This document shows, piece after piece, positions 3,685 to 58,156 of a stretch of DNA of 64,000 nt. Under the pieces are notes generated by a model. It saw only the letters and a program-made list of their open reading frames with translations. It searched no databases and was not told the DNA's origin. This DNA comes from Fibrobacteria bacterium. Its GTDB lineage: Bacteria > Fibrobacterota > Fibrobacteria > UBA5070. The stretch is taken from assembly GCA_035913415.1 (NCBI GenBank), contig JAMIIV010000207.1, positions 23,498 to 87,497 of the forward strand. The letters run 5' to 3'. A program made the translations under genes and the position numbers. How positions within the stretch are numbered: position 1 is the first letter of the stretch; the number at the start of each line of letters is the position of its first letter.

Positions 3685-5592
3685 TCAGAACACCCAGGTG
3701 AGCGCGAACCCGGACGCCCCCAACACGGCGAGGGAGCCGGCCACCCAAGCGTTGCCGCGAGCGTCCCGTTCGTCGGCGCGCGCTTGGTCGTAGCGTGCCT
3801 TGGGCACGGCGAAGTCGGATTCCGCCGAACGGTAGGCGTCCTGGGCTCGTTGCGCCTCGTCGGAGGCTTCGGCGGCCTGCTGGACGTACCACCCCGCGGC
3901 GACGCCGGCCACCAGGGCGGCGCCTCCGCTGAAGACCCGGAAGAAGGTGCGCACCCGCTCCCGACGCCGGGCCTGGACTTCGGGAGACAGGGGGAGCGAG
4001 GCGTAGAAGCTCGTGGTCAGTCCGGCCGTCAGGGAGAGATCGCGCTCCCAGGGGACCCGATCCGGAGCCTGCACCACCAGACGGTGCGGCCCGGGCTCCA
4101 GTGAGTCGGAGGACCAGACCCAACTCACCACCTGCGACTCGACCCGATTTCCGTCGATCGTCCGATGCCGGGTGGCTTCCGGCATCATCGCACCCAGGGA
4201 GGTGCCGTCGAGGGTGATGCGGGCCTCGTTGCCCGTCCGCACGCGCAAGGACGAGAATCGACTTTCCAAACGGGCGTCGACCATGGTCTCGTCACCTTTG
4301 CGCAGGAAGATCTCCCGGCGCCAATCCTGTTTGCCGGGCGCACGCACCGTGACCACGCGGCGCCCCGGCGCAAGGGTGTCGATCCGCATCGGGACACGGC
4401 CTCGCGGTTGCTCGTCGATCCAGACCTCGGCCTCGGCGGAGGCGCTGAAGAACACGCCCGCGAAGCGGCGCAGGGGCTCCAGAGTTTCGGTGGCCCCCTG
4501 GCGGATCTCCACGTCCCGGTCCAGGGTGTCCCACATCGGGTGGTGCAACACCACCTTCCAGCGCCCCGGCGGCAGGGCGATGGGATCGACCCCCGCATGG
4601 GCCCGCAGGGTGTCGCGCCGGTGGATCAGGAGCAACGCGGCTTCGGGAGCCGGATCCAGGACCAGATACCCCGCCGGACGCAGACGGACCTTCAGGCTCG
4701 TGGGACGGTCGAGCACCAGGGAGGCCGTCACGACGGTGTCCAGCCAACCCGCCTTGCGCAGATGCACCTGGTGCGAACCCACCAGCAGGGAATCGAGTTT
4801 CAGGGGAGTGGTGCCCAACTCGCGACGGGTTCTGTCATCCGGGAAGACCGCGGCCCCCGACGGCTCCGAGAACACCTTGAGGGACGACATCCCGCTGTCC
4901 AGTTGGAGCTCGATCCGCTTCAGATCGTCGCGTTGCAGGTGCACCGATTGCGCCCCCCGCCGCGTGGCGGTGCGCGCTTCCAGGAGATGTACCCCGGCCG
5001 GCAAACCCTCCAGCAGGAACGGACTGCGCCCGAGCACGCGTTTCCCATCCAGGAACAGGACGGCGGTCGTGTCGGAGAGTTCCACCTGGAGGTCGCCGGC
5101 CCCCACCTCGGTGGATTCCCGCTGGCGCGCCACCAACGCGCCTTGCGCCAGCCGCTCCCCGAGCCGGGGCACCGAGACCGCGAGCAGTTCGTCCACCGAC
5201 AACGCCCCATCCTGGCTGGCGTCGAAGAGCACCTCGCCCGACTGCACATCCAGGATGCGGGCCGCCAGCACGTACTGGTCGCCGATCTTGCCCACGGTCC
5301 CCACCACCATGCGGTCGACGGCCAGCAACCGCCCGATCTCGACCGCGCACTCGCCCCGCTCGCAGGCGCCGCTGGCCTGGAAGGCCTGCTCCTTCAGGAT
5401 GCGATCCATCTCGGAACGCTCCAGGACCCGGACCTTCCCCGACTGCAACAGGACGGCCCGCAGCCGCTCGGAGAGGATCGCGGCTTCGTCGCGACCGAGC
5501 CCTCGCGGACGGAGGTCTTCCACCGCCAGCAAGGGCATCTGGGCCGCGCGGGCCAGGCCCACGAACATCAGGAACACGAACAGGAACTTCAT
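3685..5592 (-). CDS. PEGA-domain repeat protein with signal peptide and C-terminal transmembrane segment
   Basis: Start chosen at MKFLFVFLMFVGLARAAQ, a signal peptide. It has several PEGA-like repeats (for example FSEPSGAAVFPDDRTRRELGTTPL). A hydrophobic stretch AALVAGVAAGWYV lies near the C-terminus. Confidence 0.6.
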   Translation of the reverse strand: MKFLFVFLMFVGLARAAQMPLLAVEDLRPRGLGRDEAAILSERLRAVLLQSGKVRVLERSEMDRILKEQAFQASGACERGECAVEIGRLLAVDRMVVGTVGKIGDQYVLAARILDVQSGEVLFDASQDGALSVDELLAVSVPRLGERLAQGALVARQRESTEVGAGDLQVELSDTTAVLFLDGKRVLGRSPFLLEGLPAGVHLLEARTATRRGAQSVHLQRDDLKRIELQLDSGMSSLKVFSEPSGAAVFPDDRTRRELGTTPLKLDSLLVGSHQVHLRKAGWLDTVVTASLVLDRPTSLKVRLRPAGYLVLDPAPEAALLLIHRRDTLRAHAGVDPIALPPGRWKVVLHHPMWDTLDRDVEIRQGATETLEPLRRFAGVFFSASAEAEVWIDEQPRGRVPMRIDTLAPGRRVVTVRAPGKQDWRREIFLRKGDETMVDARLESRFSSLRVRTGNEARITLDGTSLGAMMPEATRHRTIDGNRVESQVVSWVWSSDSLEPGPHRLVVQAPDRVPWERDLSLTAGLTTSFYASLPLSPEVQARRRERVRTFFRVFSGGAALVAGVAAGWYVQQAAEASDEAQRAQDAYRSAESDFAVPKARYDQARADERDARGNAWVAGSLAVLGASGFALTWVF

Positions 5593-5748: not shown

Positions 5749-8052
5749 TCAGAGTCCCGGGGCGAACACGGTGGACGAACCGGCCGCGCAGCGAATCCGC
5801 ACCACGGTCGAACCCTCCCGCCGTGGCAAGGGGATCCGGGTTTCCTGGGCCTCCAGGACGACCTCGCGACTCCAGAGGCGCCGACCACCGAGATCGAATT
5901 CCTCCAGGATCGCGGGTCCCGCCACGACCGAACGCACGCAGGCGACCCGACCTCGGAGGACGAGATGGATGGCCTCCGAACCCTGTGCCCCACCACCCCG
6001 GCTTCGGACGGGTTCCTGGATCGCGACCGCATACCCGAAACTGGCGTGTGTCGCCGAAGCCTGCAGGATCCAACCCTCCGCCGACCCCGCCGAGGGCAGG
6101 ACCGACAGCGAGAACGCAGTGATGGCCGACCCGAGGACCGGACTCTGCCAGAGAGGATCGGGGCTGTCCAGAGTCAGAATCCCCAACCGTCCTGCGGAGG
6201 TGGCGTACGCGTAGAGCGGCGCCGTCGAATCGCTGCCCGGCAGCAGGACGAGTTGTTCGATCGGAGCGCCCACCGCGTAGCGGCGAGTCCACACCCGCGC
6301 TCCGGTGCGGCGCGACCACGCGAAGAGGGTGGTGTCCAGGTCGGCGACCACCACGTCGGAAATTCCGCTGGGCGGGTTGGGCAGGAGCGCGAACGCACCA
6401 CTGGCCCTGGTCTGGCTGGGGAGTCGCACGGCCTTGGCGGCAGAGGAGTCGAACACCCAGACGCCACCGTTCTCCCACTGGGTGGGAGGCGAGCCGATCA
6501 CGAGATCGATCGAATCGATGTGGCGCAAACGGGCGATGGTTCCCGTGGTGAGCTGCCGATAGACCGAGGGCGACGAGCGTTTCCAGATCACGGAATCCAG
6601 CTCGTTGCGCAACTGGAGTTGGCCGTTGTGGGTCAGATGTGGCTCGCTGCGAGAGGCTCCCCCGTCCAGCAGGGTGGACCAGACCGCATAGGATTCCGGA
6701 GCGCGCCGCAGATCGGCCGTGACGAATTGCGAGGTATCGGACAGAAGCAGGGCCGTGCGCGCGTCAGATCCCGGTCGAACCTCCTTGCGCACGTAGCTGC
6801 CCGGCAGAAAACGAGCACCCCGGCTCGCCCCTGAACTGTCCAGGGACAACACGTAATCCTCGATGGCGACCAGGATCCTCCTTCGGCCTTCCTCGTCGAG
6901 GACCGAACTGGAGGGGAGAACGGGCAAACGGTGCCCCGGGCTGCGCCAGACCACTCGGCGACGGGAGGCGTCGGCCATCACCAACTGGTCGTCGGCGGTC
7001 GTGCCAACGTCGCCGGCCCAGACGACCTTCGCCTTCTTGCCCGTCCCGATCGGCCCCACCCACAACCCCCAAGCTCCCGAATTGGGGTTGGGGGTCTTCC
7101 AGTTTTCCGACGAATCCGGACCCAGGCGGTACAAATCACCCGATTGGTTGTCGACCACGAACAGGCGGTCCGGCCCACCCAGGCTCTCGGGCGCCACCGC
7201 GACCGCATCGAAATAGCCACCGTCGGCCTCCAAGGACCACAACCGCTCGCCGGTGGCGGCACGGAATCCGACCACCCTGCCGCTGTCGGCCACGATCTCG
7301 TCCAAGCCGTCCTGATCCAGGTCGCCCAGATGGACTCGGATGCCCCAGGGGAGTCGTCCAGGCCGTCTCCCCAGACTGTCGAAGCCCGTGCCGCGCCAGC
7401 GCCGAAGGATCCCGTTCGGCTCGACCAAGTCGATCGAATCGCGGTGGAGGGGGTGTCCCAGGGCGACCGCCGCGGCACTGGCCAACGACGCACGTCCCTT
7501 CTCGCGGAACTGGTGGTCGAGGAACAGAATCTGTCCCCGCGTCCGTTGGTCGTCCCCGCTCAGGCACACGATCTCCTCAGCCCCATCGTGGTCGATGTCG
7601 ACCAGATCGATCCTGCGGACGCCGTCCAGTGAATCCCCCCGGACGGACAGCGACCGAGGTACGAGGGAATCTCCCTCCAAGAGCAGCAGGCGTCCATCGG
7701 AGCGTCCCAGAAGGATGCGCAGACGGCCATTCTGCGGAGGCAGACTGCGCAGGGCACTGGCACCGATCTCTCCACCCGCCCCCCAGTACCGGGGCATCGG
7801 AACCAGCGTGGTATCCCCTTCTTCCGAACAAAAGATCTGAACGATGTTGCCACCCGTGGTCCATCCCCCGTAGATGCCGTCGTTGGACGCCACCGCAAGG
7901 CAATGTCTGCCATCGGAGAGCGTGACCGAGTCCATGCCTCCGACGCCGGGCATGGCACCGGTGAAGCCGATGTTCCAGAGCGGACGGACATCGAGCCGAG
8001 AAGGGGCCGAGGGAATGGCACAGGCAAGGACGAGGGCAACGAGGCTGATCAT
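5749..8052 (-). CDS. FG-GAP/beta-propeller repeat secreted protein with a putative T9SS C-terminal sorting domain
   Basis: Start at MISLVALVLACAIPSAPS, a signal peptide; the start position is frame-consistent. It carries repeated DxDxDG-like motifs (DLVDIDHDGAEEIV, LGDLDQDGLDEIV) typical of FG-GAP/VCBS repeats. The C-terminal approximately 60 aa resemble a Por-secretion tail (FDLGGRRLWSREV...TVVRIRCAAG). Confidence 0.6.
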   Translation of the reverse strand: MISLVALVLACAIPSAPSRLDVRPLWNIGFTGAMPGVGGMDSVTLSDGRHCLAVASNDGIYGGWTTGGNIVQIFCSEEGDTTLVPMPRYWGAGGEIGASALRSLPPQNGRLRILLGRSDGRLLLLEGDSLVPRSLSVRGDSLDGVRRIDLVDIDHDGAEEIVCLSGDDQRTRGQILFLDHQFREKGRASLASAAAVALGHPLHRDSIDLVEPNGILRRWRGTGFDSLGRRPGRLPWGIRVHLGDLDQDGLDEIVADSGRVVGFRAATGERLWSLEADGGYFDAVAVAPESLGGPDRLFVVDNQSGDLYRLGPDSSENWKTPNPNSGAWGLWVGPIGTGKKAKVVWAGDVGTTADDQLVMADASRRRVVWRSPGHRLPVLPSSSVLDEEGRRRILVAIEDYVLSLDSSGASRGARFLPGSYVRKEVRPGSDARTALLLSDTSQFVTADLRRAPESYAVWSTLLDGGASRSEPHLTHNGQLQLRNELDSVIWKRSSPSVYRQLTTGTIARLRHIDSIDLVIGSPPTQWENGGVWVFDSSAAKAVRLPSQTRASGAFALLPNPPSGISDVVVADLDTTLFAWSRRTGARVWTRRYAVGAPIEQLVLLPGSDSTAPLYAYATSAGRLGILTLDSPDPLWQSPVLGSAITAFSLSVLPSAGSAEGWILQASATHASFGYAVAIQEPVRSRGGGAQGSEAIHLVLRGRVACVRSVVAGPAILEEFDLGGRRLWSREVVLEAQETRIPLPRREGSTVVRIRCAAGSSTVFAPGL

Positions 8053-48824: not shown

Positions 48825-49901
48825 CTATTCCGTGACGGCGGGGTAGCGCCAGGCGTCTTCGCCTTCGCCATCGGCCTCTTGTTGGTCGGAGACGTCGATG
48901 TTCCGCCCCGTGGCCTTGAACTCCTTGACCATGGCGTCCGAGAGGTAGTGGTAGTGCAGATCGAGCCGCTTCAAACGTTGGACACCGGGGGAATCCAGAA
49001 GGGCGCGACCTCCAACGTCGGTGAGCGTGCCCTGCGACAGGTCGAGCACGTCGAGCTGCCCGAGGACTTCGGCCCCGGCGATCGCCGCGGCGATTTCGTC
49101 GGCGATTTCGCTGTCGACCAGTCCCAGGCTCCGCAGCGAAGGAAACAAGCCCTTGCTGAAGAACGGGCGCAGGTCGTCGAGGGAGCCGTCGAAGCCGTAT
49201 TCGTCGACACCCAGATACAGCTCCAGATGCTGGAGCGCCGGCAGGCGCGCCGCCGCCAGCAGATGGAGAATGACCTTGGGCAATCCACCGCAGCGGATCA
49301 CGAGCTTGGTCAGCGAATCGTGGGCGATGGGGTCGCGGCTGAGCACCAAGCTGCTCGAACCCTGGATGCGCAAGGATTCCAGACCCGGGAAGGCCGCCAG
49401 GACCCCCGTGTAATCGGCCTGGATGATCCAGGAGATCTCGCATTCCTCCGAGTCCATGTCTCCGACGATGATTTCCTTGAGGCCCGGCAGGCGCGCCGCG
49501 TGACGGCAGAGCAGATCGAGAGCGGCCTGGGGGGAATTCTCCTGCGGCTCCTCCCACGAGGCGATCACCAGGGAATCGACGCCGCTGGCCCCATCGCTTT
49601 CCAGGAACGCTTCCATCTTCGACAGGAGGGTCTTGCCCTCTTCCGCTTCGTCGTAGCTTACCGCGAGGCGTCGCGAGATCTTCTTCTCGCTGGCCTGGGC
49701 CACCTCGACGTAACCCTTCTTGACCTTCTCGGCGACCAGCTTGTCGCGCTCCTTGGTCGCCTTTTCTGGCGATTCGCAGGTGGTGGTCTTGGCCTGCCCT
49801 GCGGTCCCGATCCGACCGAAGGTGACGGTGAACGCGGACCCTTCCAGTTCAATCTGCCAGAATTTGTGCGAGGTGCCGTCTTTGAATTCGAGGTAGGTCA
49901 T
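48825..49901 (-). CDS. WGR-domain plus leucine-rich-repeat protein (STM4015-family-like)
   Basis: Start at MTYLEFKDGTSHKFWQIELEGSAFTVTFGRIG, a WGR domain. C-terminal LRR-like repeats (LxxLxLxxN/D patterns such as LKRLDLHYHYLSD). Confidence 0.7.
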   Translation of the reverse strand: MTYLEFKDGTSHKFWQIELEGSAFTVTFGRIGTAGQAKTTTCESPEKATKERDKLVAEKVKKGYVEVAQASEKKISRRLAVSYDEAEEGKTLLSKMEAFLESDGASGVDSLVIASWEEPQENSPQAALDLLCRHAARLPGLKEIIVGDMDSEECEISWIIQADYTGVLAAFPGLESLRIQGSSSLVLSRDPIAHDSLTKLVIRCGGLPKVILHLLAAARLPALQHLELYLGVDEYGFDGSLDDLRPFFSKGLFPSLRSLGLVDSEIADEIAAAIAGAEVLGQLDVLDLSQGTLTDVGGRALLDSPGVQRLKRLDLHYHYLSDAMVKEFKATGRNIDVSDQQEADGEGEDAWRYPAVTE

Positions 49902-50102
49902 CGGGATCGGCCTTCCGGAGGGGGATAAGGAGGATCTGGCTGAGGCCGCCGCTGTCGAGAACGAGCGACTGTTGCAGCCGGGGTCAGGGACCTCGAATAT
50001 AGGCTCGCGCACACCCGCATCGAGAGCCCTGGTGCCCGCGGCCGAAAACGGGCTCACCGCGCCTGGAGGAGGGCCCGAGCCCTTGCCGAACCGAGGATGG
50101 AA

Positions 50103-50717
50103 TCAGGCGCTGCAGGGAGTGCAATGGTTGTCGACCCACGGGTGCCACCCGCCGTCGAACCAGACGAAGTACATGCGTAGCTGGTCCCACCCCTTGGCGA
50201 CAAAGACGACCTGCATCACCCGCCAAGGCTTGGGCACGGGAAGCCACGGCACCACGAACTCAAGGTCGCCATCCTTGCGCCAGTGGCCGAATTTCGGGAG
50301 ATCGCGGGGCTGGACCGGATCCCAGAAAAAGCCCTGGTGGCCGCGATACGGGCCGGCGTCGTCACAAGGATTCTTCACGGCGGGGATACCCCGACGGATG
50401 GTGATTCGGGTGTCCGGCGGTATGACCTCCGTTCCGTCCATGATATCCTTCCCCACCTGCGTCGACGGGTAATCCAGAACACAGCTCGCCCCCGGGTTGT
50501 CGGCCGTGCGGTAGGGAAGTTTGGGATGAATCCACCGACTGGCCTCCTTGCGGCTTCGGCGGTAGGTCTCCAGGTATTCCTTCAGAAACTGCGGGAAGAC
50601 CGAATCGGGGTCTCGCCCGATCGAGTCCCGCAGGACGATGCGTGGTTCGGGATCGCGCGGAGCCACGATCGCCGTGTCCGAGGCTCCCGCCAGCAACAGG
50701 AGAAGAGAGAGGATCAT
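50103..50717 (-). CDS. Small secreted hypothetical protein
   Basis: Start at MILSLLLLLAGASDTAIVA, a signal peptide. The ATG overlaps the rtcR stop (ATGA). Cys-containing. WHPW near the C-terminus. Confidence 0.45.
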   Translation of the reverse strand: MILSLLLLLAGASDTAIVAPRDPEPRIVLRDSIGRDPDSVFPQFLKEYLETYRRSRKEASRWIHPKLPYRTADNPGASCVLDYPSTQVGKDIMDGTEVIPPDTRITIRRGIPAVKNPCDDAGPYRGHQGFFWDPVQPRDLPKFGHWRKDGDLEFVVPWLPVPKPWRVMQVVFVAKGWDQLRMYFVWFDGGWHPWVDNHCTPCSA

Positions 50718-52327
50718 GGACGCCTCGGGGAGGAAGAGTCGTGCGCTTCGGACCAGGAAAGTCCGAAGCGGCCAAGGTACTTGCGCAGCCGATCGGAATC
50801 GTTGGGGCTTTCCTTGCGCTCGCGCGAAACGGAGAACAGGCATCGCCCCGCCTCTGCCATCGTGGCCGACGAACGGCAGACTCCCAGCACGTGCGCCAGC
50901 TGCACCCGATCGAACTCGTCCAGCCGTCCCACGCGGGACGGGACGACGGATTCCGTCACGGGATCGCCGGCGCGGATCCACGAGCGTTCCAGACGTTCGA
51001 TTTCTTCGTCCACGTTCGGCTTGGTGATGCGGCCGTCCGACAGCAGCGCCATGCGCGTCACCGCCGCGGCCAGGTCGCGGAAATTCCCCTTCCACGAAGC
51101 ACGCGCCGAGGTCCCCCACTCCAGGAAGCGCTCGCGCGCCTCGCGGGTGATCGAAACCTGGCGTCCTTCGCGTGCACGCAACCGTTCCAGCTCGTACTCC
51201 AGATTGGGCTCCAGGTCGGCCGGCCGGTCGGCCAGTCCGGGCAGGGCGAAGGTCCACAACTGGATGCGCGCCAGGAGGTCTTCGCGGAATCGCCCGCGCG
51301 CCACCTCGGCCCCCAGATCCTTGTGCGATCCGGCCAGAAGCAGGAAATCGCTCTCGACTTCCCGATCCGAACCCACGGGGCGAAAGCGTTTCTCTTCCAG
51401 GGCCACCAGAAGCATCGCCTGCTCTTCCAGCCCCAGCTCGCCGATCTCGTCCAGGAACAGGATCCCCCGGTCGGCCGCACGCAGATAACCGGCCCGATCC
51501 CCTACCGCCCCGGTGAAGGCTCCTTTCACGTGCCCGAAGAGGGCCGACATCGCCCCTTCGCCGGCCAGGGTGGCGCAATTCACCGCGACGAACTCGCCGG
51601 CCACCAGCCCCCGCTGGCGGCGCAGTTCGTGGATGCGCCGCGCCAGGCTCGATTTGCCCGATCCGGTGGGTCCACCCAGCAGGATCGGATCGCGCGACCG
51701 GGAGGCCACGACTTCGATGCGCTCGATCAGGCGGTTGAACGCCTTGTCGCGGGTGCGGATGCCGTCCTTGAGGAAGTCGCGCCGGTCGCGGATGTCTTCG
51801 CGGAAGCGCGAGGCGATGCGGTCGTACCTGGACAGATCGAGATCGATGAGGGAGATGCGGCCGGGCAGCGATTTGTCGTTGCCCTCGGGGGGACTGGTCT
51901 GCAGGAGACGCCCCGGCAGGAAACGCGCCTCGGTGAGCAGGAACAGGCAGATCTGGTGGACATGGCTGCCCGTGGTGATGTGCACCAGCAGGTCTTCCCG
52001 CGCAGGATCGAAGGCCAGGCGGCGCGACAGGTCCAGGAGCACCGAGTAGACCGCCTCGAAGTCCCACGGATCGTGGGCGGGCAGGATCTCGCAGACCACG
52101 TCCATCCCGGGGCGCAGTTGGCGCAGATCGGAGGCCACCACCTCACCCAGCTCGCGGAACTTCTCCTGGAACAGCAGATGGTAGCGATCGAAGGGAGGGT
52201 CGTCGTGCCGGGCCAGATCGACCGTGGGACGCCACCGATCCCAACGTTTACGCCCCATGCCCCCGTCGAGGACCGTGCCGAGGATACCGATGCCCACGAG
52301 GGGCCTGGAAGTCGTTTTGCGCGTCAT
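50714..52327 (-). CDS. rtcR: Sigma-54-dependent transcriptional regulator RtcR (CARF domain, AAA+ and HTH)
   Basis: Start at MTRKTTSRPLVGIGILGTVLDGG. Strong similarity throughout to E. coli RtcR as recalled, including Walker A GPTGSGKSSLARRI and the GAFTGA motif. Confidence 0.85.
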   Translation of the reverse strand: MTRKTTSRPLVGIGILGTVLDGGMGRKRWDRWRPTVDLARHDDPPFDRYHLLFQEKFRELGEVVASDLRQLRPGMDVVCEILPAHDPWDFEAVYSVLLDLSRRLAFDPAREDLLVHITTGSHVHQICLFLLTEARFLPGRLLQTSPPEGNDKSLPGRISLIDLDLSRYDRIASRFREDIRDRRDFLKDGIRTRDKAFNRLIERIEVVASRSRDPILLGGPTGSGKSSLARRIHELRRQRGLVAGEFVAVNCATLAGEGAMSALFGHVKGAFTGAVGDRAGYLRAADRGILFLDEIGELGLEEQAMLLVALEEKRFRPVGSDREVESDFLLLAGSHKDLGAEVARGRFREDLLARIQLWTFALPGLADRPADLEPNLEYELERLRAREGRQVSITREARERFLEWGTSARASWKGNFRDLAAAVTRMALLSDGRITKPNVDEEIERLERSWIRAGDPVTESVVPSRVGRLDEFDRVQLAHVLGVCRSSATMAEAGRCLFSVSRERKESPNDSDRLRKYLGRFGLSWSEAHDSSSPRRP

Positions 52328-52417
52328 TCTATCGCACAGGATAGATCCTATGCCTTGCGATATCAATGCACCCCGATCCGGGCACACGTTTCTCCGACGG
52401 ATCCGCGCGACAACGAT

Positions 52418-52433
52418 TGGCACGCCCTTCGCA
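52418..52433 (+). promoter_or_regulatory. Sigma-54 (-24/-12) promoter TGGCAC-N5-TCGCA
   Basis: ttGGCACgccctTCGCA differs from the consensus TGGCAC-N5-TTGCA at one position. It lies divergent from rtcR and about 20 nt upstream of the tRNA-like RNA, as expected for an RtcR-dependent promoter. Confidence 0.5.
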
Positions 52434-52453
52434 CTTGAAGTGGAATACCGAAA

Positions 52454-52671
52454 GGGGAGGTAGCTCAAACGGAAGAGCACCGGAAAAACGTTGGACAACG
52501 GCACTGTAACAGGCACCGCGAACCGCAAGGTCGCCGGGCAGGGTTGCGGAGGCACCTATAGCGGCCTCGAAGGGTCATCACTCCCCCGAGGTGGGTGAAG
52601 CAGCAAGGGAAGCGCGTTTCCCAAGAGCCTGGCTTGTCGCGGCGATGCGGGTTCGATCCCCGTCCTCTCCA
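52454..52671 (+). ncRNA. tRNA-like structured RNA (about 218 nt) at the 5' end of the rsr operon; candidate Y-RNA-like or processed leader
   Basis: The 5' end GGGGAGG-TA-GCTCAAACGGAAGAGC gives a 7-bp acceptor 5' strand and a canonical D-arm. The 3' end GCGGG-TTCGATC-CCCGT-CCTCTCC-A gives a T-arm and a complementary acceptor 3' strand. An approximately 165 nt insert sits where the anticodon arm should be. Confidence 0.4.
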
Positions 52672-52703: not shown

Positions 52704-54275
52704 ATGCCCAATCTCGAACTGTTCAAGACCATCGCGGGCAGACTCATCCCCGCCACCGATACCCGCAACGCAGCGGGCGGCGTTGCGTACACCCGCTCCC
52801 CCAAGTCGGAGCTGGCCCAGCTGGCGATGACCGGATGCCTCAACGGCACCTTCCATGCCCAGGCCGAAGTGCAACTGGAGGCCATCCTCAAGCGCACTGC
52901 GGAGATCGATCCCGCCTGGATCGCCAAGCTGGCCCTGGTGGCCCGCAAGAAGGGCCACATGAAAGACGTTCCCGCCCTGCTGCTGGCGACCCTCGCCGTC
53001 CGCGACCGGGACAGCGCGGCGACCGCGTTTCCCCTGGTGATCGACAACGCCCGGATGCTGCGGACCTTCGTACAGATCGTCCGCTCGGGAGCCGCGGGAC
53101 GCAAGTCCTTCGGCTCGGCGCCCCGGCGCTGGATCCGGCAGTGGCTGGAATCACGGACTCTCGAACAGCTCCTGGACGCTTCGGTAGGCAACCAGCCCTC
53201 GCTCGCCGACATCGTGAAGATGGTCCATCCCCGGCCCGACGGTCCCGAGCGCGAAGCCTTCTACGGCTGGCTCTTGGGCAAGGAGGTCGCGACGGACACG
53301 CTTCCCGAGCGGGTGCGGGCCCTGCTGGCCTGGCGCGACGGAGACCGGGAAACGGTCCCCGAAACCGCGTTCGAACTCCTGACCGATCGGCCCCTGTCCA
53401 CCGGATCCTGGGCGGCCATCGCCCGCCGCGCCGGCTGGCAGTGGACGCGCATGAACCTCGCCACCCTCGCGCGGCACGGCGTGTTCGCCGATCCGGCGAT
53501 GGTGGACCTGGTGGCCGCCCGGCTGCGGGATCCGTCTCTGATCGCCCGGTCGCGCGTCTTTCCCTACCAGATCCTGTCCGCCTGGAAGGCGGCCGGGACC
53601 GACCTCCCCTCTGTCGTCCGCGACGCCCTCCAGGACGCGCTGGAACATGCGGTAGAGAACGTTCCCGCCTTCGCGGGGAAGGTGGTCGTCCTGCCCGACG
53701 TCTCCGGCTCCATGCACAGCCCCGTCACCGGATTCCGTCCGGGTGCGAGCTCGGCCACGCGCTGCGTGGACGTCGCCGCCCTCTTCGCCGCCGCCATCCT
53801 GCGGCGCAACCCTTCCGCCACCGTCATCCCCTTCAAGGAAGACATCGTGAACCTCGTCCTGAATCCTCGCGATTCCATCAGCACCAACGCCGAGCGCATG
53901 GCTTCCGTGGGCCCCGGCGGGACCGATTGTTCGGCCCCGCTGCGGCACCTGAACCAGCGCAAGGCCAAGGCCGACCTGGTCGTATTCGTCTCCGACAACG
54001 AGTCGTGGATGGACCCCGCCCGGGGACGCTGCACCACCACCCTGCGGGAATGGGAAACCTTCCGCGCCCGCAATCCCGGCGCCCGGCTGGTGTGCATCGA
54101 CCTGGCCCCCAACACCACGGTGCAGGCGCCCGATCGGCCCGACATCCTCAACGTAGGAGGCTTCTCCGACCAGGTCTTCGGACTGGTGGGGGAATTCGCC
54201 TCCGGCGGTCTGGAAGCCGGCGCCTGGGAGACGCGCATCGAACGGGAGGGAGAACGCCTCTTGAACGCGGCGTAG
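52704..54275 (+). CDS. rsr: Ro60 ortholog Rsr (TROVE domain plus vWA domain)
   Basis: Protein-like composition across about 520 aa. The architecture recalls bacterial Ro (TROVE-like helical N-region, DVSGSM-type vWA MIDAS motif VVLPDVSGSMHSP). Confidence 0.8.
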   Translation: MPNLELFKTIAGRLIPATDTRNAAGGVAYTRSPKSELAQLAMTGCLNGTFHAQAEVQLEAILKRTAEIDPAWIAKLALVARKKGHMKDVPALLLATLAVRDRDSAATAFPLVIDNARMLRTFVQIVRSGAAGRKSFGSAPRRWIRQWLESRTLEQLLDASVGNQPSLADIVKMVHPRPDGPEREAFYGWLLGKEVATDTLPERVRALLAWRDGDRETVPETAFELLTDRPLSTGSWAAIARRAGWQWTRMNLATLARHGVFADPAMVDLVAARLRDPSLIARSRVFPYQILSAWKAAGTDLPSVVRDALQDALEHAVENVPAFAGKVVVLPDVSGSMHSPVTGFRPGASSATRCVDVAALFAAAILRRNPSATVIPFKEDIVNLVLNPRDSISTNAERMASVGPGGTDCSAPLRHLNQRKAKADLVVFVSDNESWMDPARGRCTTTLREWETFRARNPGARLVCIDLAPNTTVQAPDRPDILNVGGFSDQVFGLVGEFASGGLEAGAWETRIEREGERLLNAA

Positions 54276-54597
54276 GGCGGAGTGGAAAGGCGCGACGAAT
54301 ACCGCGGCGGTCTACACTTGGACCTGGCATCCATTCCGGAGCGCGGGGGAAGATCCCGCAGGAGCCGCAAGGCTCCCGAGGCGTCGCCAGAGGACGCACC
54401 AGGCGGCGAAAGCCGGCAGACCACGCAATCCTTGTCGCCGCGCCCCCTCCATCCTCCCAACGCCCCTGACCGGGGGCGCCCGAGACGAATACCGGACGGG
54501 AGTCCATCCTCCACCTCCGCCGCGCCGCCCCGGGAGGGGCGGCACCCCGACTCCGGGGCAGGCACCTCCCCCCACCCTTGTCGTCCTGGGCGCTCCT

Positions 54598-54705
54598 TCT
54601 TTGGCGCGGAAGAATGCTGGACGGGAATCCATTGGTCAACACCTCCGTTTGCAAGAACGGTGGTGTGGGTTCAAGTCCCAAATCCCTCCACACCTTGTCT
54701 TCCGC
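54598..54705 (+). ncRNA. Candidate small structured RNA (second Y-RNA-like element)
   Basis: Terminal helix GGCGCGGAAGA / TCTTCCGCGC enclosing about 88 nt. The enclosed region has a T-loop-like GGTTCAAGTCC hairpin (GGTGTGG...CCACACC) and a CCGTTtgcaagaAACGG hairpin. CTTTTTCC follows. Confidence 0.25.
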
Positions 54706-54750
54706 GCTTTTTCCCTTTCCCGGGGCCCTCGAGGGGGCCCCACCCCTGTG

Positions 54751-54900
54751 CCCCCCCTTATGTCGAATGCCGGACAGGTGTACATCACACGTGTCGGTGC
54801 CGGGTTCGATTCCCGGCGCGGCCACTCTTCGGCCGCGTAGCTCAGTGGTAGAGCAACCCCGCTTCGCGGGCCACTTGTCCACCCTTGTCGACATTCGGGG
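54751..54900 (+). ncRNA. Candidate Y RNA (YrlA-like) with permuted tRNA-like module
   Basis: Terminal stem CCCCttATGTCGA / TCGACATtcGGGG with a 2x2 internal loop. The interior holds a T-arm (CCGGG-TTCGATT-CCCGG), an acceptor-like stem CGCGGCC-ctcttcg-GCCGCG capped by a loop, and a D-arm (GCTC-AGTGGTAGA-GAGC). Confidence 0.5.
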
Positions 54901-54924
54901 ATACTTCCTTTGGAGACACATCCC

Positions 54925-56148
54925 ATGAACCATCCCGAAATCTTCCAGCCCTCCCGTGGCGGCCTCGTGAAGGCCTGGACCCGCGGCGTCTTGTTCGAGG
55001 ACGAAGCCCGCCGCCAGGTGGAAAACGCCGCGAGCCTCCCCTTCATCCACAAGTGGGTCGCCATCATGCCCGACGTGCACGCCGGGAAGGGCGCCACGGT
55101 CGGATCCGTGATCCCCACCCTCGACGCCATCGTTCCCGCGGCCGTGGGTGTCGACATCGGTTGCGGCATGATGGCCGTGCGCACCTCGCTGAATGCCCGC
55201 GACCTTCCCGACAATCTGGCCTCCCTCCGGTCGGCCATCGAACGCGCCGTCCCCCATGGGCGCACCGACAACGGGGGCCGCAACGACCGCGGCGCCTGGA
55301 ACACACCTCCCGAGGCCGTCCGTTCCGCATGGGACTCCATGAGCCCCATCTTCGACCAGATCCGCGAGAAGCACCCGAAGATCGGGGCCTCCAACTCCTG
55401 GAACCACCTGGGAACCCTCGGGACGGGCAACCACTTCATCGAAGTCTGCCTGGACACGACGGATTCCGTCTGGGTGATGCTGCACTCCGGATCGCGCGGC
55501 GTGGGCAACCGGATCGGGTCGTACTTCATCGAGAAGGCCAAGCGCGAGATGGAACGCTGGCACATCCACCTTCCCGACGCCGACCTCGCCTACCTGCCGG
55601 AAGGCTCGCAGCATTTCGGCGACTACGTGAAGGCCCTGAAGTGGGCGCAAGGCTTCGCGATGAAGAACCGGGAACTGATGATGGACGCCACCCTGGCGGC
55701 CCTGGCGTCGCTGCCCGGGATCCCGCCCTTCGAACGCACCCTGGACGCGGTGAACTGCCACCACAACTACGTCGACCGCGAGCACCACTTCGGCAAGGAC
55801 GTGTGGGTCACCCGCAAGGGTGCCGTGCGCGCCCGCGATGGCGAAATGGGGATCATCCCCGGCTCCATGGGAACCCGTTCGTACATCGTGCGCGGCAAGG
55901 GCAACCCGGACAGTTTCTGTTCGTGCTCGCACGGCGCGGGTCGGGCGATGAGCCGTACCGAAGCCAGACGCCGCTTCACCCTGGCAGACCATGAACGCTG
56001 GACCGCGGGAATCGAATGCCGCAAGGACGCCGAGGTGATCGACGAGACCCCCGGCGCCTACAAGGACATCGACGCCGTGATGGAGGCGCAGAAGGACCTC
56101 GTGGAGGTCGTGCACACGCTCCGGCAGGTGGTCTGCGTGAAGGGCTGA
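54925..56148 (+). CDS. rtcB: RNA-splicing ligase RtcB
   Basis: Start at MNHPEIF. Matches E. coli RtcB as recalled (MPDVHAGKGATVGSVIPT, GVDIGCGM, GTLGTGNHFIE, NCHHNY, SCSHGAGR). Confidence 0.9.
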   Translation: MNHPEIFQPSRGGLVKAWTRGVLFEDEARRQVENAASLPFIHKWVAIMPDVHAGKGATVGSVIPTLDAIVPAAVGVDIGCGMMAVRTSLNARDLPDNLASLRSAIERAVPHGRTDNGGRNDRGAWNTPPEAVRSAWDSMSPIFDQIREKHPKIGASNSWNHLGTLGTGNHFIEVCLDTTDSVWVMLHSGSRGVGNRIGSYFIEKAKREMERWHIHLPDADLAYLPEGSQHFGDYVKALKWAQGFAMKNRELMMDATLAALASLPGIPPFERTLDAVNCHHNYVDREHHFGKDVWVTRKGAVRARDGEMGIIPGSMGTRSYIVRGKGNPDSFCSCSHGAGRAMSRTEARRRFTLADHERWTAGIECRKDAEVIDETPGAYKDIDAVMEAQKDLVEVVHTLRQVVCVKG

Positions 56149-56173: not shown

Positions 56174-56743
56174 GTGGCCAGGACTACCTTCGAGAGACCG
56201 ATGCAGACTCCGCACCCTTCCCGAACTCGCGTCACGATCGTCGCCACCGCGGCGATGCTGGTGTGCGTCGGCTGCGCCCCCGCCCCCATCCTGGTTCGGA
56301 CCTCGGTCACCCAACCCGATGTATTCTTGCGCCCGGACTCTTCCTGCCCGATCCCCGCGATCCGGTTTCGCGCCGACGGCTCGATCTCCCCCGTGCAGGG
56401 GACGGACGGCCATCTCGATCGTTGCCTGATCTCGTTCCCGCAGCCCGATCGACGAGGCGTGGTGGTCGAGCTTTCGGGCGTGAGTGATCCCTGCCGCACG
56501 GGAACGCTGCGCCGCGCGTGGATGGTGGCCCGATCCGACTCTGATTCCCTGATCCTCGGCACGCCCACGCCATCCTCCCGCGCCGAGATCCGAACCGAGC
56601 CCGACGTTCCGGACGATCCCGAGCTGCGCTGCCGGGTTCTCGATTCGAGCCTGGCCTTGGTCGAGGTCGTGATGTCGGATTCCGTCGTGGCACGCACCTG
56701 TTTCGCCGACGACAAAACGGGATTCCGAAGGTGCCTTCCGTGA
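56174..56743 (+). CDS. Hypothetical lipoprotein
   Basis: Signal peptide/lipobox TIVATAAMLVCVGC. The start may be at MQTPHPS (56201). Confidence 0.45.
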   Translation: MARTTFERPMQTPHPSRTRVTIVATAAMLVCVGCAPAPILVRTSVTQPDVFLRPDSSCPIPAIRFRADGSISPVQGTDGHLDRCLISFPQPDRRGVVVELSGVSDPCRTGTLRRAWMVARSDSDSLILGTPTPSSRAEIRTEPDVPDDPELRCRVLDSSLALVEVVMSDSVVARTCFADDKTGFRRCLP

Positions 56744-57447
56744 AGCCCTCCCACCTTCTCGCGGCGGGGATCGTCGCGGCCTTCGTGCTGCAGGGTTGCG
56801 CGACCCTCGTCGCCCTGTCCACGGCCGAGCGCATCCCGTTGCGGGAGGAGCGGATCCATCGTTGGGACTCGACCGGATCACAAGACCGAATGCTCCGCGC
56901 GACGCTGGAGGGGCGGACCGCGGACAGTGCCGGGCCGTCGCTGTGGAAATTCGAAGGTGCCGACATCTGGCTTCTGTGGCCGTCGTCGGGCAACCCCGTT
57001 GTGTTGTCGGACTCCCGCGATTCGCTGGACCACCACCTCAAGACGCGCCCGGGATGGGACACGACGGGAGTCGACACGATCGATGTCTACCTGATGTCCG
57101 ACACCACCGCCCGCGTCCCACCCGCCCTGCTGTCCGGCGCCGGTCGCCAAGCCATCGCGCTTTGGAGTCGGCCACGCTCCTCCGTGGACTGGAAGCCCGC
57201 CTGGGCCCTGCGCCTTCGGGACCGGACCCCGGTGATGGAGCCCCTGGTCTGGATCGGGCACCCGCGATTCAACCCTCTCGTGTGGGGGTGGGTGGTCGTG
57301 CCTGGTGGCGTCGCGGTCGACGTCGCGGCCTGGCCCCTGTACGTGGCAGCCTGGCATGTGGCGCAACCCGCGCTTCTTCCCGTGGCGGGCGGCATTCTCG
57401 CACTCGGATTCCTCGTCGCCTACCTCATGCGGGACTGGCACTTCTAG
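56731..57447 (+). CDS. Hypothetical lipoprotein with C-terminal hydrophobic segment
   Basis: N-terminal LAAGIVAAFVLQGC lipobox. C-terminal PVAGGILALGFLVAYLM. Confidence 0.45.
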   Translation: MPSVKPSHLLAAGIVAAFVLQGCATLVALSTAERIPLREERIHRWDSTGSQDRMLRATLEGRTADSAGPSLWKFEGADIWLLWPSSGNPVVLSDSRDSLDHHLKTRPGWDTTGVDTIDVYLMSDTTARVPPALLSGAGRQAIALWSRPRSSVDWKPAWALRLRDRTPVMEPLVWIGHPRFNPLVWGWVVVPGGVAVDVAAWPLYVAAWHVAQPALLPVAGGILALGFLVAYLMRDWHF

Positions 57448-57505
57448 GCGGCTTCCCACGGACAATCCGCTGGCCCAGCGCACCCGCGACGAGCCTCCGC
57501 TCGGC

Positions 57506-58156
57506 TCACTCCGCCAGGTTTCGGCGATTCCGGGCCCGCCACCACCCGTGCAACCCATCCACCAGGCCCCACAGAACAGATCCCGCCACGGCCAGGGCCA
57601 TGTCCTTGTGGGCGTCCCAGGGATCGCCCTGCTGCCCGTTGTATCCCTCGGCGGCATCGGCCGAAAGGAGCAGCGTCAACGCCCATTCGAACAGTTCGTA
57701 GGCCAGGCTCGCGGCGGCCACCCATTGCACCACCAGGAGTCTGGCCGTGCGGGGCCGCGTCACCACGCGACGGAATCCGTCCATCAGGCGCGGCGACACC
57801 AGCACGCCGAACAGAAGATGTACCAGCCGGTCGAAATGGTTGCGCTCCCACCCGAACACCTCCGACAAGGTGTGCCCCGCGAGACTCCGGGCCCAGGTGT
57901 CGTAGGGCACGTACGAGTAGATCCAGCGCGCCGCGAACGCGTGCAGGAACATGAACCCCATCAGACAGCGGGAACTGGCCGTCGAGGCCGCACCTCGCGC
58001 GATTCCCGAAGCGATCCAGGCCGCGACCACGAGGGTCCCCGCGTGCTGCAGCGGCATCATCTCCGGATAGGGACTACCGATCGCCAGCGCCAGGCTTCCG
58101 GCCGACGCCACACCCAACTCGATCCAGGACTTCCGAAGCGAGGGCTTGGTGCTCAT
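57506..58156 (-). CDS. DUF2238-family (YjdF-like) inner-membrane protein
   Basis: Multi-TM protein. The FGWERNHFDRLVHLLFG region matches my recollection of DUF2238. Confidence 0.55.
   Translation of the reverse strand: MSTKPSLRKSWIELGVASAGSLALAIGSPYPEMMPLQHAGTLVVAAWIASGIARGAASTASSRCLMGFMFLHAFAARWIYSYVPYDTWARSLAGHTLSEVFGWERNHFDRLVHLLFGVLVSPRLMDGFRRVVTRPRTARLLVVQWVAAASLAYELFEWALTLLLSADAAEGYNGQQGDPWDAHKDMALAVAGSVLWGLVDGLHGWWRARNRRNLAE

What the first reader, a model, noticed from the sequence alone, without database searches (positions are those of the whole stretch)
52454..52671. tRNA-like RNA with a 165-nt insertion in place of the anticodon arm, right at the predicted sigma-54 transcription start upstream of rsr
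The two ends of this 218-nt segment form a 7-bp acceptor stem (GGGGAGG / CCTCTCC, one G·U pair). The discriminator is A.

A canonical D-arm (GCTC-AAACGGAA-GAGC) follows the 5' strand. A canonical T-arm (GCGGG-TTCGATC-CCCGT) precedes the 3' strand.

Between D-arm and T-arm there is about 165 nt instead of an anticodon arm and variable loop. That is too long for a class II tRNA and too short for a group I intron. It does not resemble tmRNA: there is no tag ORF ending in Ala-Ala-stop and no tmRNA 5' motifs.

It begins about 20 nt after the sigma-54 -12 element and ends 33 nt before the rsr ATG. It therefore probably forms the 5' leader of the rsr operon transcript. Its acceptor-like end could be cut by RNase P.

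It may be a Y-RNA-like partner for Ro, or a tRNA-mimic decoy or sensor linked to RtcR. The RtcR CARF domain is reported to respond to tRNA fragments.
Basis: seen in the sequence. Interest (0 to 1): 0.7.

Follow-up and report, generated by a model that had tools for sequence, protein, structure and literature searches.

The report
tRNA-shaped RNA with giant variable arm
A 218-base gene for a transfer-RNA-shaped RNA carrying a large conserved extra domain sits at the start of a bacterial RNA-repair operon, and it belongs to a widespread, apparently uncatalogued RNA family otherwise found mainly in the tRNA gene clusters of large bacteriophages.

Summary
Window 52454-52671 (+) has a 7-bp acceptor stem (G3.U70, A73), U8/A9, and canonical D and T arms. 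It lies 20 nt after a conserved sigma-54 promoter and 33 nt before rsr.

It is not a tRNA with an intron, a tmRNA or a YrlA. ARAGORN and Rfam find nothing there at normal thresholds.

It belongs to a family of about 45 tRNA-like RNAs that I assembled from viral contigs, metagenomes and cultured Streptomyces phages, where they are unannotated. A covariance model built from six phage copies alone finds the window element end to end (68 bits, E 2e-16). Ordinary tRNAs reach at most 39 bits.

Across 34 members, 94.5% of cells pair and 31 of 41 pairs show changes on both sides. The tertiary 15:48 pair covaries. The roughly 150-nt insertion is therefore a giant structured variable arm, and a short non-decoding anticodon-like arm is retained.

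In this bacterial clade the element was inserted between promoter and rsr. It is far better conserved than rsr synonymous sites.

Function is inferred, not shown: a tRNA-processed stable RNA acting in the tRNA-damage response, possibly with Rsr. I found no prior description.

The parts
52418..52433 (+). Sigma-54-type promoter TGGCAC-N5-TCGCA. The inferred transcription start is about 52443-52445.
   Evidence: Only match to the pattern in the window. Conserved in L028, L029 and L031-L035 upstream of rsr. The start site is inferred from standard -24/-12 geometry.
52444..52453 (+). Short 5' leader (..AUACCGAAAG), expected to be removed by RNase P. ACCGAAAG is conserved in the three loci that hold it.
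   Evidence: Alignment A1. Processing is inferred.
52454..52460 (+). Acceptor stem, 5' strand GGGGAGG (G3 of the G3.U70 pair).
   Evidence: All 7 acceptor pairs covary across the family.
52461..52478 (+). U8 A9 plus the D arm GCTC-AAACGGAA-GAGC (A14, A15, G18, G19, A21).
   Evidence: A15 pairs with U48 (52646), the covarying Levitt pair.
52480..52494 (+). Anticodon-like arm CCGG-AAAAACG-TTGG. The A-rich loop lacks U33, so it is non-decoding. The AAAACG core is nearly invariant in the family.
   Evidence: helix 3.
52501..52514 (+). Small hairpin GC(A)CUG-UAA-CAGGC. It corresponds to the GUAAA-loop hairpin of the phage copies.
52516..52521 (+). Helix P0, 5' strand CCGCGA, followed by A52522. Together with 52634-52642 it reads CGAA / CUUGUCG, like the Ro-binding helix of Y RNAs.
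   Evidence: Compensatory changes in L030. An equivalent P0 helix is present in all long family members. For comparison, the Rfam YrlA consensus and the four downstream Y RNAs.
52522..52531 (+). GNRA-capped mini-hairpin ACC-GCAA-GGU at the three-way junction.
   Evidence: GCAA changes to GAAA in L029 and L030. Analogous hairpins occur in other members.
52533..52539 (+). Helix P1, 5' strand GCCGGGC. It pairs with 52627-52633.
   Evidence: Aligned to model helix P1. All 6 model pairs covary (helix 4). G-C changes to A-U in L030.
52542..52556 (+). Hairpin P2, GGU(U)GC-GGAG-GCACC. This is the nearly invariant family motif GGUUGCGGANGCACC.
   Evidence: helices 5 and 6.
52557..52606 (+). Variable module P3, subtype iii: UAUAGCGG, then the hairpin GGCCUCG..CGAGGU with a pyrimidine-rich loop, then GGGUGAAGCAGCAA.
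   Evidence: Compensatory changes in L030. The same subtype occurs in L193, L337/L348, L338, L340-L342 and L344.
52607..52622 (+). Hairpin P4, GGGAA-GCGCGU-UUCCC. This is the invariant family motif GGGAAGCGCGUU.
   Evidence: helix 8.
52627..52642 (+). 3' strands of P1 (GCCUGGC) and P0 (UCGCGG), joined by UUG.
52643..52646 (+). CGAU linker. U52646 is position 48, the Levitt partner of A15.
52647..52663 (+). T arm GCGGG-TTCGATC-CCCGT.
   Evidence: helix 9, 100% paired.
52664..52671 (+). Acceptor stem 3' strand CCTCTCC plus discriminator A73. No CCA is encoded (CUU follows).
   Evidence: At least eight other family members encode CCA right after the discriminator.
52704..54275 (+). rsr, the Ro60 homologue (TROVE and vWA domains).
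54289..54897 (+). Array of four Y-RNA-like units. The last one (54760-54897) is a canonical permuted YrlA.
   Evidence: Read by eye. Rfam YrlA scores 47.1 bits, E 2e-9, below the gathering score of 69.
54910..56148 (+). rtcB, an RNA ligase.
50714..52328 (-). rtcR, the sigma-54 activator with a CARF-type RtcR domain, transcribed divergently.
   Evidence: The start codon is inferred from homologue lengths.

Best explanation
The segment is a gene for a stable, tRNA-shaped non-coding RNA. It belongs to a distinct family defined by these features.

- A complete tRNA body: 7-bp acceptor stem, U8, D arm, T arm, the R15:Y48 tertiary pair and A73, with CCA encoded in several members.
- A short anticodon-like hairpin with an invariant A-rich loop that cannot decode.
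- A 75-200-nt structured domain in the variable-arm position. Its core is two nearly invariant hairpins (GGUUGCGGAUGCACC and GGGAAGCGCGUUUCC), closed by covarying helices.

Most members lie in tRNA gene clusters of large phages. In this bacterial clade a copy was inserted between the RtcR/sigma-54 promoter and rsr.

Inferred steps: the RNA is made only when the operon is induced by damaged tRNAs. It is cut from the front of the rsr-Y RNA-rtcB transcript by RNase P at 52453/52454 and by a 3' tRNA-processing nuclease after A52671, and it then receives CCA.

Likely role, also inferred: a tRNA mimic that works with the RNA repair and quality-control machinery. The conserved domain would be a docking platform. 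Rsr is the leading candidate partner.

What is shown: family membership, fold, selection and operon position. What is inferred: processing, partner and role.
For: Fold and family:
- A covariance model built from six phage sequences only finds window 52454-52671 full length, at 68.2 bits and E 2e-16. tRNAs in the same searches score at most 39 bits.
- On 34 members, 94.5% of cells pair, against 72% in shuffles and 39-53% in slid controls. Of 41 pairs, 31 change on both sides. The covariation score is 0.537 against 0.16.
- The 15:48 pair is A:U in 19 members, G:C in 10 and other in 5.
- At least eight members encode CCA after the discriminator.

Selection in the bacterial clade:
- Against L029 the element is 97.7% identical. 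rsr third-codon positions are 78.8% identical and the flanking spacers 72-76%.
- Against L030 the element is 86.2% identical, against 51.5% and 48.5%.
- L030 carries compensatory changes in four internal helices.

Operon position:
- The promoter is conserved. In the closest relatives that lack the element, the promoter abuts rsr.

Link to RNA repair and Ro60:
- Rsr homologues lie within the fetched locus of 4 of about 25 member viral contigs, and of none of about 275 non-member viral loci. YrlA-like RNAs lie beside them.
- Cultured carriers Gilson, Comrade, Moab, Alone3 and pSt2308 all encode Ro60, although only 395 of 50,697 phage records do.
- RNA ligase and polynucleotide kinase genes lie nearby in Gilsonviruses.

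Precedents:
- Operon induction by tRNA fragments (PMC7790460).
Against: - No expression or processing data exist for any member.
- Ro60-encoding regions of five other phages (Mx1, Catera, phiKT1024, Atu_ph07, LukeCage) have no member within 9 kb.
- Phage Kela carries the RNA, but no Ro-like gene is annotated in 120-160 kb of its genome.
- The association with Ro60 is confounded. Both features occur in large phages with tRNA clusters.
- Canonical Y RNAs are already present in this operon, so another Rsr partner is not needed.
- No Ro-binding motif is conserved across the family.
- Minimum-free-energy folding of the single sequence is no better than shuffles (z = -0.42).
- Acceptor-stem identity varies between members, so no single aminoacylation identity defines the family.
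Confidence: 0.6

Rival explanations
1. It is specifically a new-topology Y RNA. Helix P0 (5'-CCGCGAA / CUUGUCGCGG-3', with a bulged G) is an Rsr-binding site like that of YrlA, grafted onto a non-permuted tRNA body. The RNA would tether Rsr to tRNA-binding factors.
For: - P0 plus its junction reads CGAA...CUUGUCG. The four downstream Y RNAs have the same motif, and so does the Rfam YrlA consensus cggCgaA...CUuGucGccg.
- The motif is kept in L030 through compensatory changes.
- It is found only in the rsr-linked clade, as expected for an adaptation to Rsr.
- The gene is immediately upstream of rsr.
Against: - P0, a hairpin and P1 form a three-way junction in all long family members, with unrelated sequences: CACGUG/CGCGUG, CACCUA/UAGGUG and CAUGUUGA/UUAACAUG. 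The helix is therefore inherited from the family, not a grafted Y stem.
- The sequence resemblance was noticed after the fact.
- The polarity relative to the tRNA body is opposite to that expected from a circular permutation of YrlA.
- Rfam YrlA gives no match on the element even at E up to 10.
Confidence: 0.25
2. It is a sacrificial tRNA mimic for signalling or decoy purposes. A tRNA-targeting nuclease would cleave it, or be competitively inhibited by it. A 5' fragment ending in a 2',3'-cyclic phosphate would bind the RtcR CARF domain and amplify induction. In phages it would act as a decoy against host tRNA nucleases.
For: - RtcR binds 5' tRNA halves that end in a cyclic phosphate. YrlA has been proposed as a competitive inhibitor of an anticodon nuclease (PMC7790460).
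- The element is the first RNA made from the induced promoter.
- Phage copies sit among tRNA genes and near RNA ligase and kinase genes.
Against: - The anticodon-like loop (AAAACGGA, or AAAAACG in the window) lacks U33 and resembles no known nuclease target.
- This idea does not explain the large invariant core.
- Phages have no RtcR.
- No data on cleavage exist.
Confidence: 0.12
3. It is a cis-acting 5' leader, such as a riboswitch, a T-box-like sensor or a processing and stability element, that controls rsr expression rather than a separate RNA.
For: - It lies between the promoter and the rsr ribosome-binding site.
- The invariant core with swappable P3 modules resembles the layout of riboswitch aptamers.
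Against: - Most family members are free-standing genes in phage tRNA clusters. They have acceptor ends, and often an encoded CCA, and are not upstream of any consistent gene.
- There is no terminator or anti-Shine-Dalgarno pairing after the element.
- Close relatives express rsr from the same promoter without the element.
Confidence: 0.07
4. It is a real decoding tRNA with an intron, a reduced tmRNA, or a decaying remnant of a phage or tRNA integration event.
For: - ARAGORN at a lowered threshold calls 'tRNA-Ala' with an intron.
- G3.U70 and A73 match the tRNA-Ala and tmRNA identity elements.
- One phage member has a weak Rfam tmRNA match (22.6 bits).
- The family is phage-borne.
Against: - No tool calls a tRNA or tmRNA at normal thresholds.
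- The called anticodon arm conflicts with conserved hairpin P4.
- There is no conserved tag reading frame: L030 has an early stop in the only frame that closes.
- There is no group I intron match.
- The strong purifying selection and compensatory changes rule out a relic.
Confidence: 0.03

Closest known systems
YrlA (Rfam RF02553) and other bacterial Y RNAs
   Same: - A non-coding RNA with a tRNA-like module: the same D-stem GCUC/GAGC and a similar T arm.
- Encoded next to rsr, inside RtcR-controlled operons and in Ro60-encoding phages.
- M. smegmatis YrlA is cut by RNase P and gains CCA (PMC4201824).
   Different: - YrlA is circularly permuted. Its 5' and 3' ends form the Ro-binding stem at the anticodon position, and its acceptor stem is closed by a loop.
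- This RNA has normal tRNA topology with open acceptor ends, keeps an anticodon-like arm, and carries a large conserved variable-arm domain that YrlA lacks.
- The Rfam YrlA model does not match it.
- A true YrlA lies downstream in the same operon.
tmRNA (SsrA)
   Same: - tRNA-like ends separated by a long structured insert.
- G3.U70 and A73 in this copy and in about a quarter of the family.
- Encoded in the same large phages.
   Different: - This RNA has a full D arm and an anticodon-like arm.
- The insert is much shorter.
- It has no tag ORF or resume codon.
- There is no Rfam or ARAGORN tmRNA call.
- Carriers have a separate genuine tmRNA.
Class II tRNAs (Leu, Ser, Tyr, Sec) with long variable arms
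   Same: The extra structure emerges from the variable region, between the anticodon arm and position 48. The tRNA core and the 15:48 pair are kept.
   Different: - Class II variable arms are single hairpins of about 10-25 nt. Here the domain is 75-200 nt with several helices and invariant motifs.
- The anticodon loop here is non-canonical and invariant, so the RNA cannot decode.
D. radiodurans Yrn1
   Same: A Ro-bound Y RNA in which the D-like and T arms are in normal tRNA order (PMC4201824).
   Different: In Yrn1 the Ro-binding stem occupies the acceptor position, and the D arm is doubtful. There is no conserved variable-arm domain and no sequence relation.
Stable RNAs of unknown function in the phage T4 tRNA cluster (species 1 and 2 RNAs). 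Recalled from memory, not tested.
   Same: Non-tRNA stable RNAs encoded within a phage tRNA gene cluster and matured by tRNA-processing enzymes.
   Different: I could not compare sequences. blastn with family members found only Streptomyces phages.

Membership tests
Canonical tRNA (Rfam RF00005 / ARAGORN) | 7-bp acceptor stem, D arm, T arm with a TPsiC-type loop, and tertiary pairs U8-A14, R15-Y48, G18/G19-U55/C56. | tested here: met
   Sequence, geometry scan, and 15:48 covariation across the family.
Canonical tRNA (Rfam RF00005 / ARAGORN) | 5-bp anticodon stem with a 7-nt loop carrying U33 and a usable anticodon, and a variable region of at most about 25 nt. | tested here: not met
   The stem is 4 bp and the loop is AAAAACG, without U33. 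About 150 nt separate this arm from position 48.
Canonical tRNA (Rfam RF00005 / ARAGORN) | Detected by dedicated tools at their normal thresholds. | tested here: not met
   ARAGORN finds 0 genes, also with the intron option. Rfam gives no match at the gathering score or at E up to 10. The shortest phage member, L239, does pass Rfam tRNA at 38.9 bits.
tRNA gene with a group I intron | Intron inserted in the anticodon loop with a group I core (P3-P9). | tested here: not met
   No Intron_gpI match at E up to 10. The insertion is in the variable region, and the insert is too short.
tmRNA | tRNA-Ala-like acceptor end (G3.U70, A73). | tested here: met
   G56.T68 of the window corresponds to 3:70, and A52671 to A73. 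Only 8 of 33 family members have G3.U70.
tmRNA | Internal tag reading frame with a resume codon and stop, pseudoknots, and detection by ARAGORN or Rfam. | tested here: not met
   No conserved ORF. No tmRNA call.
YrlA / Y RNA | 5' and 3' ends pair to form the Ro-binding stem carrying GNCGAAN0-1G, and the tRNA-like module is permuted (T arm, closed acceptor stem-loop, D arm). | tested here: not met
   The order here is acceptor 5' strand, D arm, insert, T arm, acceptor 3' strand. There is no Rfam YrlA match on the element. A CGAA/CUUGUCG helix exists internally, but it is the generic family helix P0.
YrlA / Y RNA | Bound by Ro60/Rsr. | not testable with these tools
   Only genomic linkage is available: it lies upstream of rsr here, and Rsr is in 4 of about 25 member viral loci.
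   68.2 bits, E 2e-16, model positions 1-152, using a model that contains no sequence of the window clade. The tRNA background is at most 39 bits.

The most novel reading that the evidence does not exclude
This is a previously unrecognised class of tRNA-shaped RNAs. Its giant, nearly invariant variable-arm domain would be a functional module, either a binding site for a protein or a small molecule, or a catalytic centre, used in phage-host conflicts over tRNA integrity. One bacterial lineage has captured it and wired it to the RtcR damage sensor, as a new RNA component of the Ro60/RtcB repair system. Some members (G3.U70, A73, CCA) may even be charged with alanine.
Probability: 0.45. Interest if true: 0.85.

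Novelty: new variant of a known kind. Interest (0 to 1): 0.75.

Why it matters
tRNA mimics such as tmRNA, YrlA and viral tRNA-like structures are few, and each has revealed new biology.

This is a well-supported structured RNA family with about 45 members in hand, strong covariation and invariant motifs. It is absent from Rfam 15 and unannotated in cultured, tractable Streptomyces phages.

Its placement directly behind the RtcR/sigma-54 promoter and in front of rsr ties it to the still unclear function of bacterial Ro60, Y RNAs and RtcB.

That gives concrete experiments: RNase P processing, CCA addition, alanylation, Rsr binding, and phage deletion on hosts with tRNA-targeting defences.

It also exposes a gap in annotation. 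tRNA finders miss these genes.

Tried and rejected
1. tRNA with an intron, or tmRNA. ARAGORN in default and intron modes and Rfam at gathering and E-value thresholds gave nothing. The only call, at a lowered threshold, forces an anticodon arm out of hairpin P4.

2. Single-sequence folding. The z-score is -0.42, which is uninformative in 63% G+C sequence.

3. Orthologue search through Rsr in 185,579 species genomes. The best hits were only 55% identical (Pseudomonas and alphaproteobacteria), and they lack the element.

4. 'A Y RNA nested in a tRNA scaffold'. This looked attractive because of CGAA/CUUGUCG. I downgraded it once P0 proved to be a generic family helix.

5. Weak R1 hits downstream of rsr in Pseudomonas. 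They are junctions of tandem permuted YrlA units, not members.

6. Looking for the RNA next to Ro60 in Mx1, Catera, phiKT1024, Atu_ph07 and LukeCage. None was found.

7. blastn of the window element against GenBank phages, and of the family core against E. coli genomes and plasmids. No match.

8. MAFFT plus RNAalifold on subtype-iii members. The alignment of the variable parts was too poor to use.

9. Literature. Papers on Y RNA, Ro60 and RtcR, a jumbo-phage survey and a 10,006-motif viral RNA catalogue were searched. None describes this RNA, although it could be hidden among unnamed catalogue entries.

10. Taxon of the source organism. Not resolved. The nearest named Rsr homologues, at 57-59% identity, come from Verrucomicrobia, Acidobacteria and Variovorax.

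Full report
**The observation**

The sequence at 52454-52671 (+) is as described.
- GGGGAGG (52454-60) pairs with CCTCTCC (52664-70). The single G.U falls at tRNA positions 3:70.
- U8 and A9 follow.
- The D arm is GCTC-AAACGGAA-GAGC, with A14, G18, G19 and A21.
- The T arm is GCGGG-TTCGATC-CCCGT, and the discriminator is A.

A scan written for this geometry, allowing any insertion up to 400 nt, finds this one site on both strands of the window. One of 100 shuffles gave a hit.

ARAGORN finds no tRNA or tmRNA in the window, nor in the region with introns allowed. At 90% threshold it reports the same ends as 'tRNA-Ala' with a 125-nt intron, but the anticodon arm it builds conflicts with a conserved hairpin. 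Rfam 15 has no match at gathering scores in the window. It has none at E up to 10 on the element. The minimum free energy of the single sequence is no better than shuffles.

**Genomic setting**

- rtcR lies on the minus strand, about 50714-52328.
- rsr lies at 52704-54275 and rtcB at 54910-56148.
- TGGCACGCCCTTCGCA at 52418-33 is the only match to a sigma-54 pattern in the window. It is conserved upstream of rsr in seven related loci.
- By the usual -24/-12 geometry, transcription starts near 52444. That leaves a leader of about 10 nt before G+1 of the tRNA-like RNA.
- Between rsr and rtcB lie four tandem Y-RNA-like units. The last (54760-54897) matches Rfam YrlA at 47 bits, E 2e-9.

The operon therefore already has canonical, circularly permuted Y RNAs as described by Chen et al. 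2014 (PMC4201824).

**Relatives of the locus**

Species genomes hold only Rsr homologues of at most 56% identity, and these lack the element. In the large protein collection, seven Rsr homologues have 68-94% identity. I read their contigs.
- The element is present upstream of rsr in the three closest: L028 (94%), L029 (91%) and L030 (81%, cut by the contig end).
- It is absent in L031-L035 (76-68%), where the same promoter sits 14-30 nt before rsr.

It is therefore a clade-specific insertion between promoter and gene.

It is under strong selection.
- Against L029 it is 97.7% identical. rsr third-codon positions are 78.8% identical and neighbouring spacers 72-76%.
- Against L030 it is 86.2% identical, against 51.5% and 48.5%.

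L030 carries compensatory changes in four internal helices.

**A wider family**

I scanned viral contigs with short conserved strings from the element. This returned mostly chance hits, but also clear homologues inside the tRNA clusters of large phages. They share the following parts.
- A tRNA body.
- An arm with the loop AAAACGGA.
- A covarying closing helix, P1.
- The hairpin GGUUGC-GGAU-GCACC.
- A variable module, P3, in three subtypes.
- The hairpin GGGAA-GCGCGU-UUUCC.
- A T arm, an acceptor 3' strand and A73. In at least eight members, an encoded CCA follows.

One metagenome scan added 12 loci of the window's subtype.

blastn against GenBank phages found the RNA, unannotated, in Streptomyces phages of three lineages: Gilsonvirus, the pSt2308/Alone3 group and the Kela/Satis group. 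There it lies among tRNA genes and near tmRNA, RNA ligase, polynucleotide kinase or Ro-like genes. There are no matches in E. coli genomes or plasmids.

**Tests of homology and structure**

I built a covariance model from six short phage members only, with a hand-derived structure that 40-41 of 41 pairs satisfy in each sequence.
- It finds the window element from the first to the last model position, at 68.2 bits and E 2e-16.
- It finds all other members at 33-176 bits.
- Ordinary tRNAs reach at most 39 bits.

On 34 aligned members:
- 94.5% of cells form standard pairs, against 72% in shuffles and 39-53% when partners are slid.
- 31 of 41 pairs show changes on both sides.
- The covariation score is 0.537, against 0.16.
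- The acceptor stem, D stem, anticodon-like stem, P1 and T stem all covary.
- P2 and P4 are almost invariant.

This alignment was fitted to the model, which favours the structure. The slid controls argue that the signal is real.

The nucleotide just 5' of the T stem covaries with D-loop position 15: A:U in 19 members, G:C in 10 and other in 5. This is the tRNA Levitt pair. It places the whole insertion in the variable-arm position.

Longer members, including the window, add an outer helix P0 and a small hairpin, forming a three-way junction with P1.

**What it is not**

- It is not a decoding tRNA. The loop has no U33, and the loop sequence is invariant across the family.
- It is not a tmRNA. 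There is no conserved reading frame, and carriers have separate tmRNAs.
- It is not a YrlA. The topology is not permuted, and the Rfam model does not match.
- Weak model hits downstream of rsr in Pseudomonas are junctions between tandem YrlA units.

**Link to Ro60**

The window's P0 reads CCGCGAA / CUUGUCGCGG. This is the same motif as the Ro-binding helix of the downstream Y RNAs and of the YrlA consensus. It appears only in the rsr-linked clade. However, P0 exists with unrelated sequences in other members, so this may be adaptation or coincidence.

Evidence for a link:
- Rsr homologues lie within the fetched locus of four member viral contigs (L167, L190, L239, L319), next to YrlA-like RNAs. 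They lie in none of about 275 non-member viral loci.
- Five cultured carriers encode Ro60, although only 395 of 50,697 phage records do.

Evidence against:
- Five other Ro60 phage regions lack the RNA.
- No Ro-like gene is annotated in 120-160 kb of phage Kela.
- Large phages with tRNA clusters tend to have both features, which confounds the association.
- Some members lie beside purF-like or EF-Tu genes of uncertain origin, phage or bacterial.

**Mechanism**

What is shown:
- A conserved, structured, tRNA-shaped RNA gene at the head of the RtcR-controlled operon.

What is inferred:
- It is induced together with rsr and rtcB by damaged tRNAs (PMC7790460).
- It is excised by RNase P and a 3' nuclease, and CCA is added. 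The precedent is M. smegmatis YrlA (PMC4201824).
- It acts as a tRNA mimic whose conserved domain docks a partner. Rsr is the leading candidate.

Alternatives are a decoy or signal for tRNA nucleases and RtcR, or a cis-acting leader. G3.U70 with A73 in this copy suggests possible recognition by AlaRS, but only about a quarter of members share it.

**Novelty**

I found no description of this RNA in Rfam 15, in GenBank annotation of carrier phages, or in the papers searched. It could be an unnamed entry in bulk catalogues of viral RNA motifs (PMC10690425). I rate it a new variant of a known kind, tRNA-mimicking non-coding RNAs, with high interest.

Noticed in passing
window 54289-54897 (+): Four tandem Y-RNA-like units lie between rsr and rtcB. 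Each starts with (G)NCGAAU(A/G)CCG-like sequence and ends with CCUUGUCG. Only the last (54760-54897) is found by Rfam YrlA, and it scores below the gathering score (47.1 against 69). Relatives that carry the upstream element have long rsr-rtcB spacers (620-820 nt). Those without it have 150-300 nt.
   Followed up: partly
L008 4771-5301 (Ectopseudomonas guguanensis) and other Pseudomonas rsr loci: In tandem arrays of permuted YrlA genes, the D arm of one unit and the T arm of the next are read as a 'tRNA'. Rfam tRNA scores 32.6 bits at 4846-4963, above its gathering score of 29. This is an annotation artefact.
   Followed up: yes
L336 3001-3155 (Streptomyces phage Comrade NC_048728.1 80573-80727); L349 2501-2690 (MeganTheeKilla): Closely related Gilsonviruses carry family members with an almost identical tRNA body but different central modules: the short subtype i against the GGGGAACCUUAACCCC-containing subtype ii. 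The P3 module is therefore exchangeable. All copies are unannotated in GenBank.
   Followed up: partly
L239 2562-5204 (viral contig IMGVR_UViG_3300042934_000619): A phage locus is arranged as YrlA-like RNA (2562-2671), a second weak YrlA-like match (2829-2895), the new tRNA-like RNA (3065-3216), an rsr homologue (3795-5204) and then tRNAs. This parallels the bacterial operon. Here the Rfam tRNA model passes its threshold on the element (38.9 bits).
   Followed up: partly
family alignment; in the window, 52484-52490 and 52615-52620: The invariant anticodon-like loop AAAACG is complementary to CGUUU(U) at the 3' side of hairpin P4. In L303 an extra U in the loop is matched by an extra G in P4. 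This may be a pseudoknot or loop contact, and it would compete with the inner A-U pairs of P4.
   Followed up: partly
L198 8554-9813 (viral contig IMGVR_UViG_3300022562_000333, 83 kb): A contig classed as viral carries a family member (6285-6548). It also carries a full EF-Tu gene that is 82% identical to the two named homologues, both Polyangia (a Polyangiaceae bacterium and Labilithrix), and up to 88% identical to unnamed sequences. It is either a misclassified bacterial fragment or a large phage that encodes EF-Tu. L337 and L348 have the RNA next to a purF-like gene.
   Followed up: partly
window 56174-57701 (+): No RtcA cyclase is recognisable after rtcB. The next two ORFs (56174-56743 and 56796-57701) have no Pfam match, unlike the rsr-yrlBA-rtcBA operon of Salmonella.
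   Followed up: no
window 48825-50057 (-): A WGR-domain protein gene lies just beyond rtcR. Its relation to the operon is unknown.
   Followed up: no
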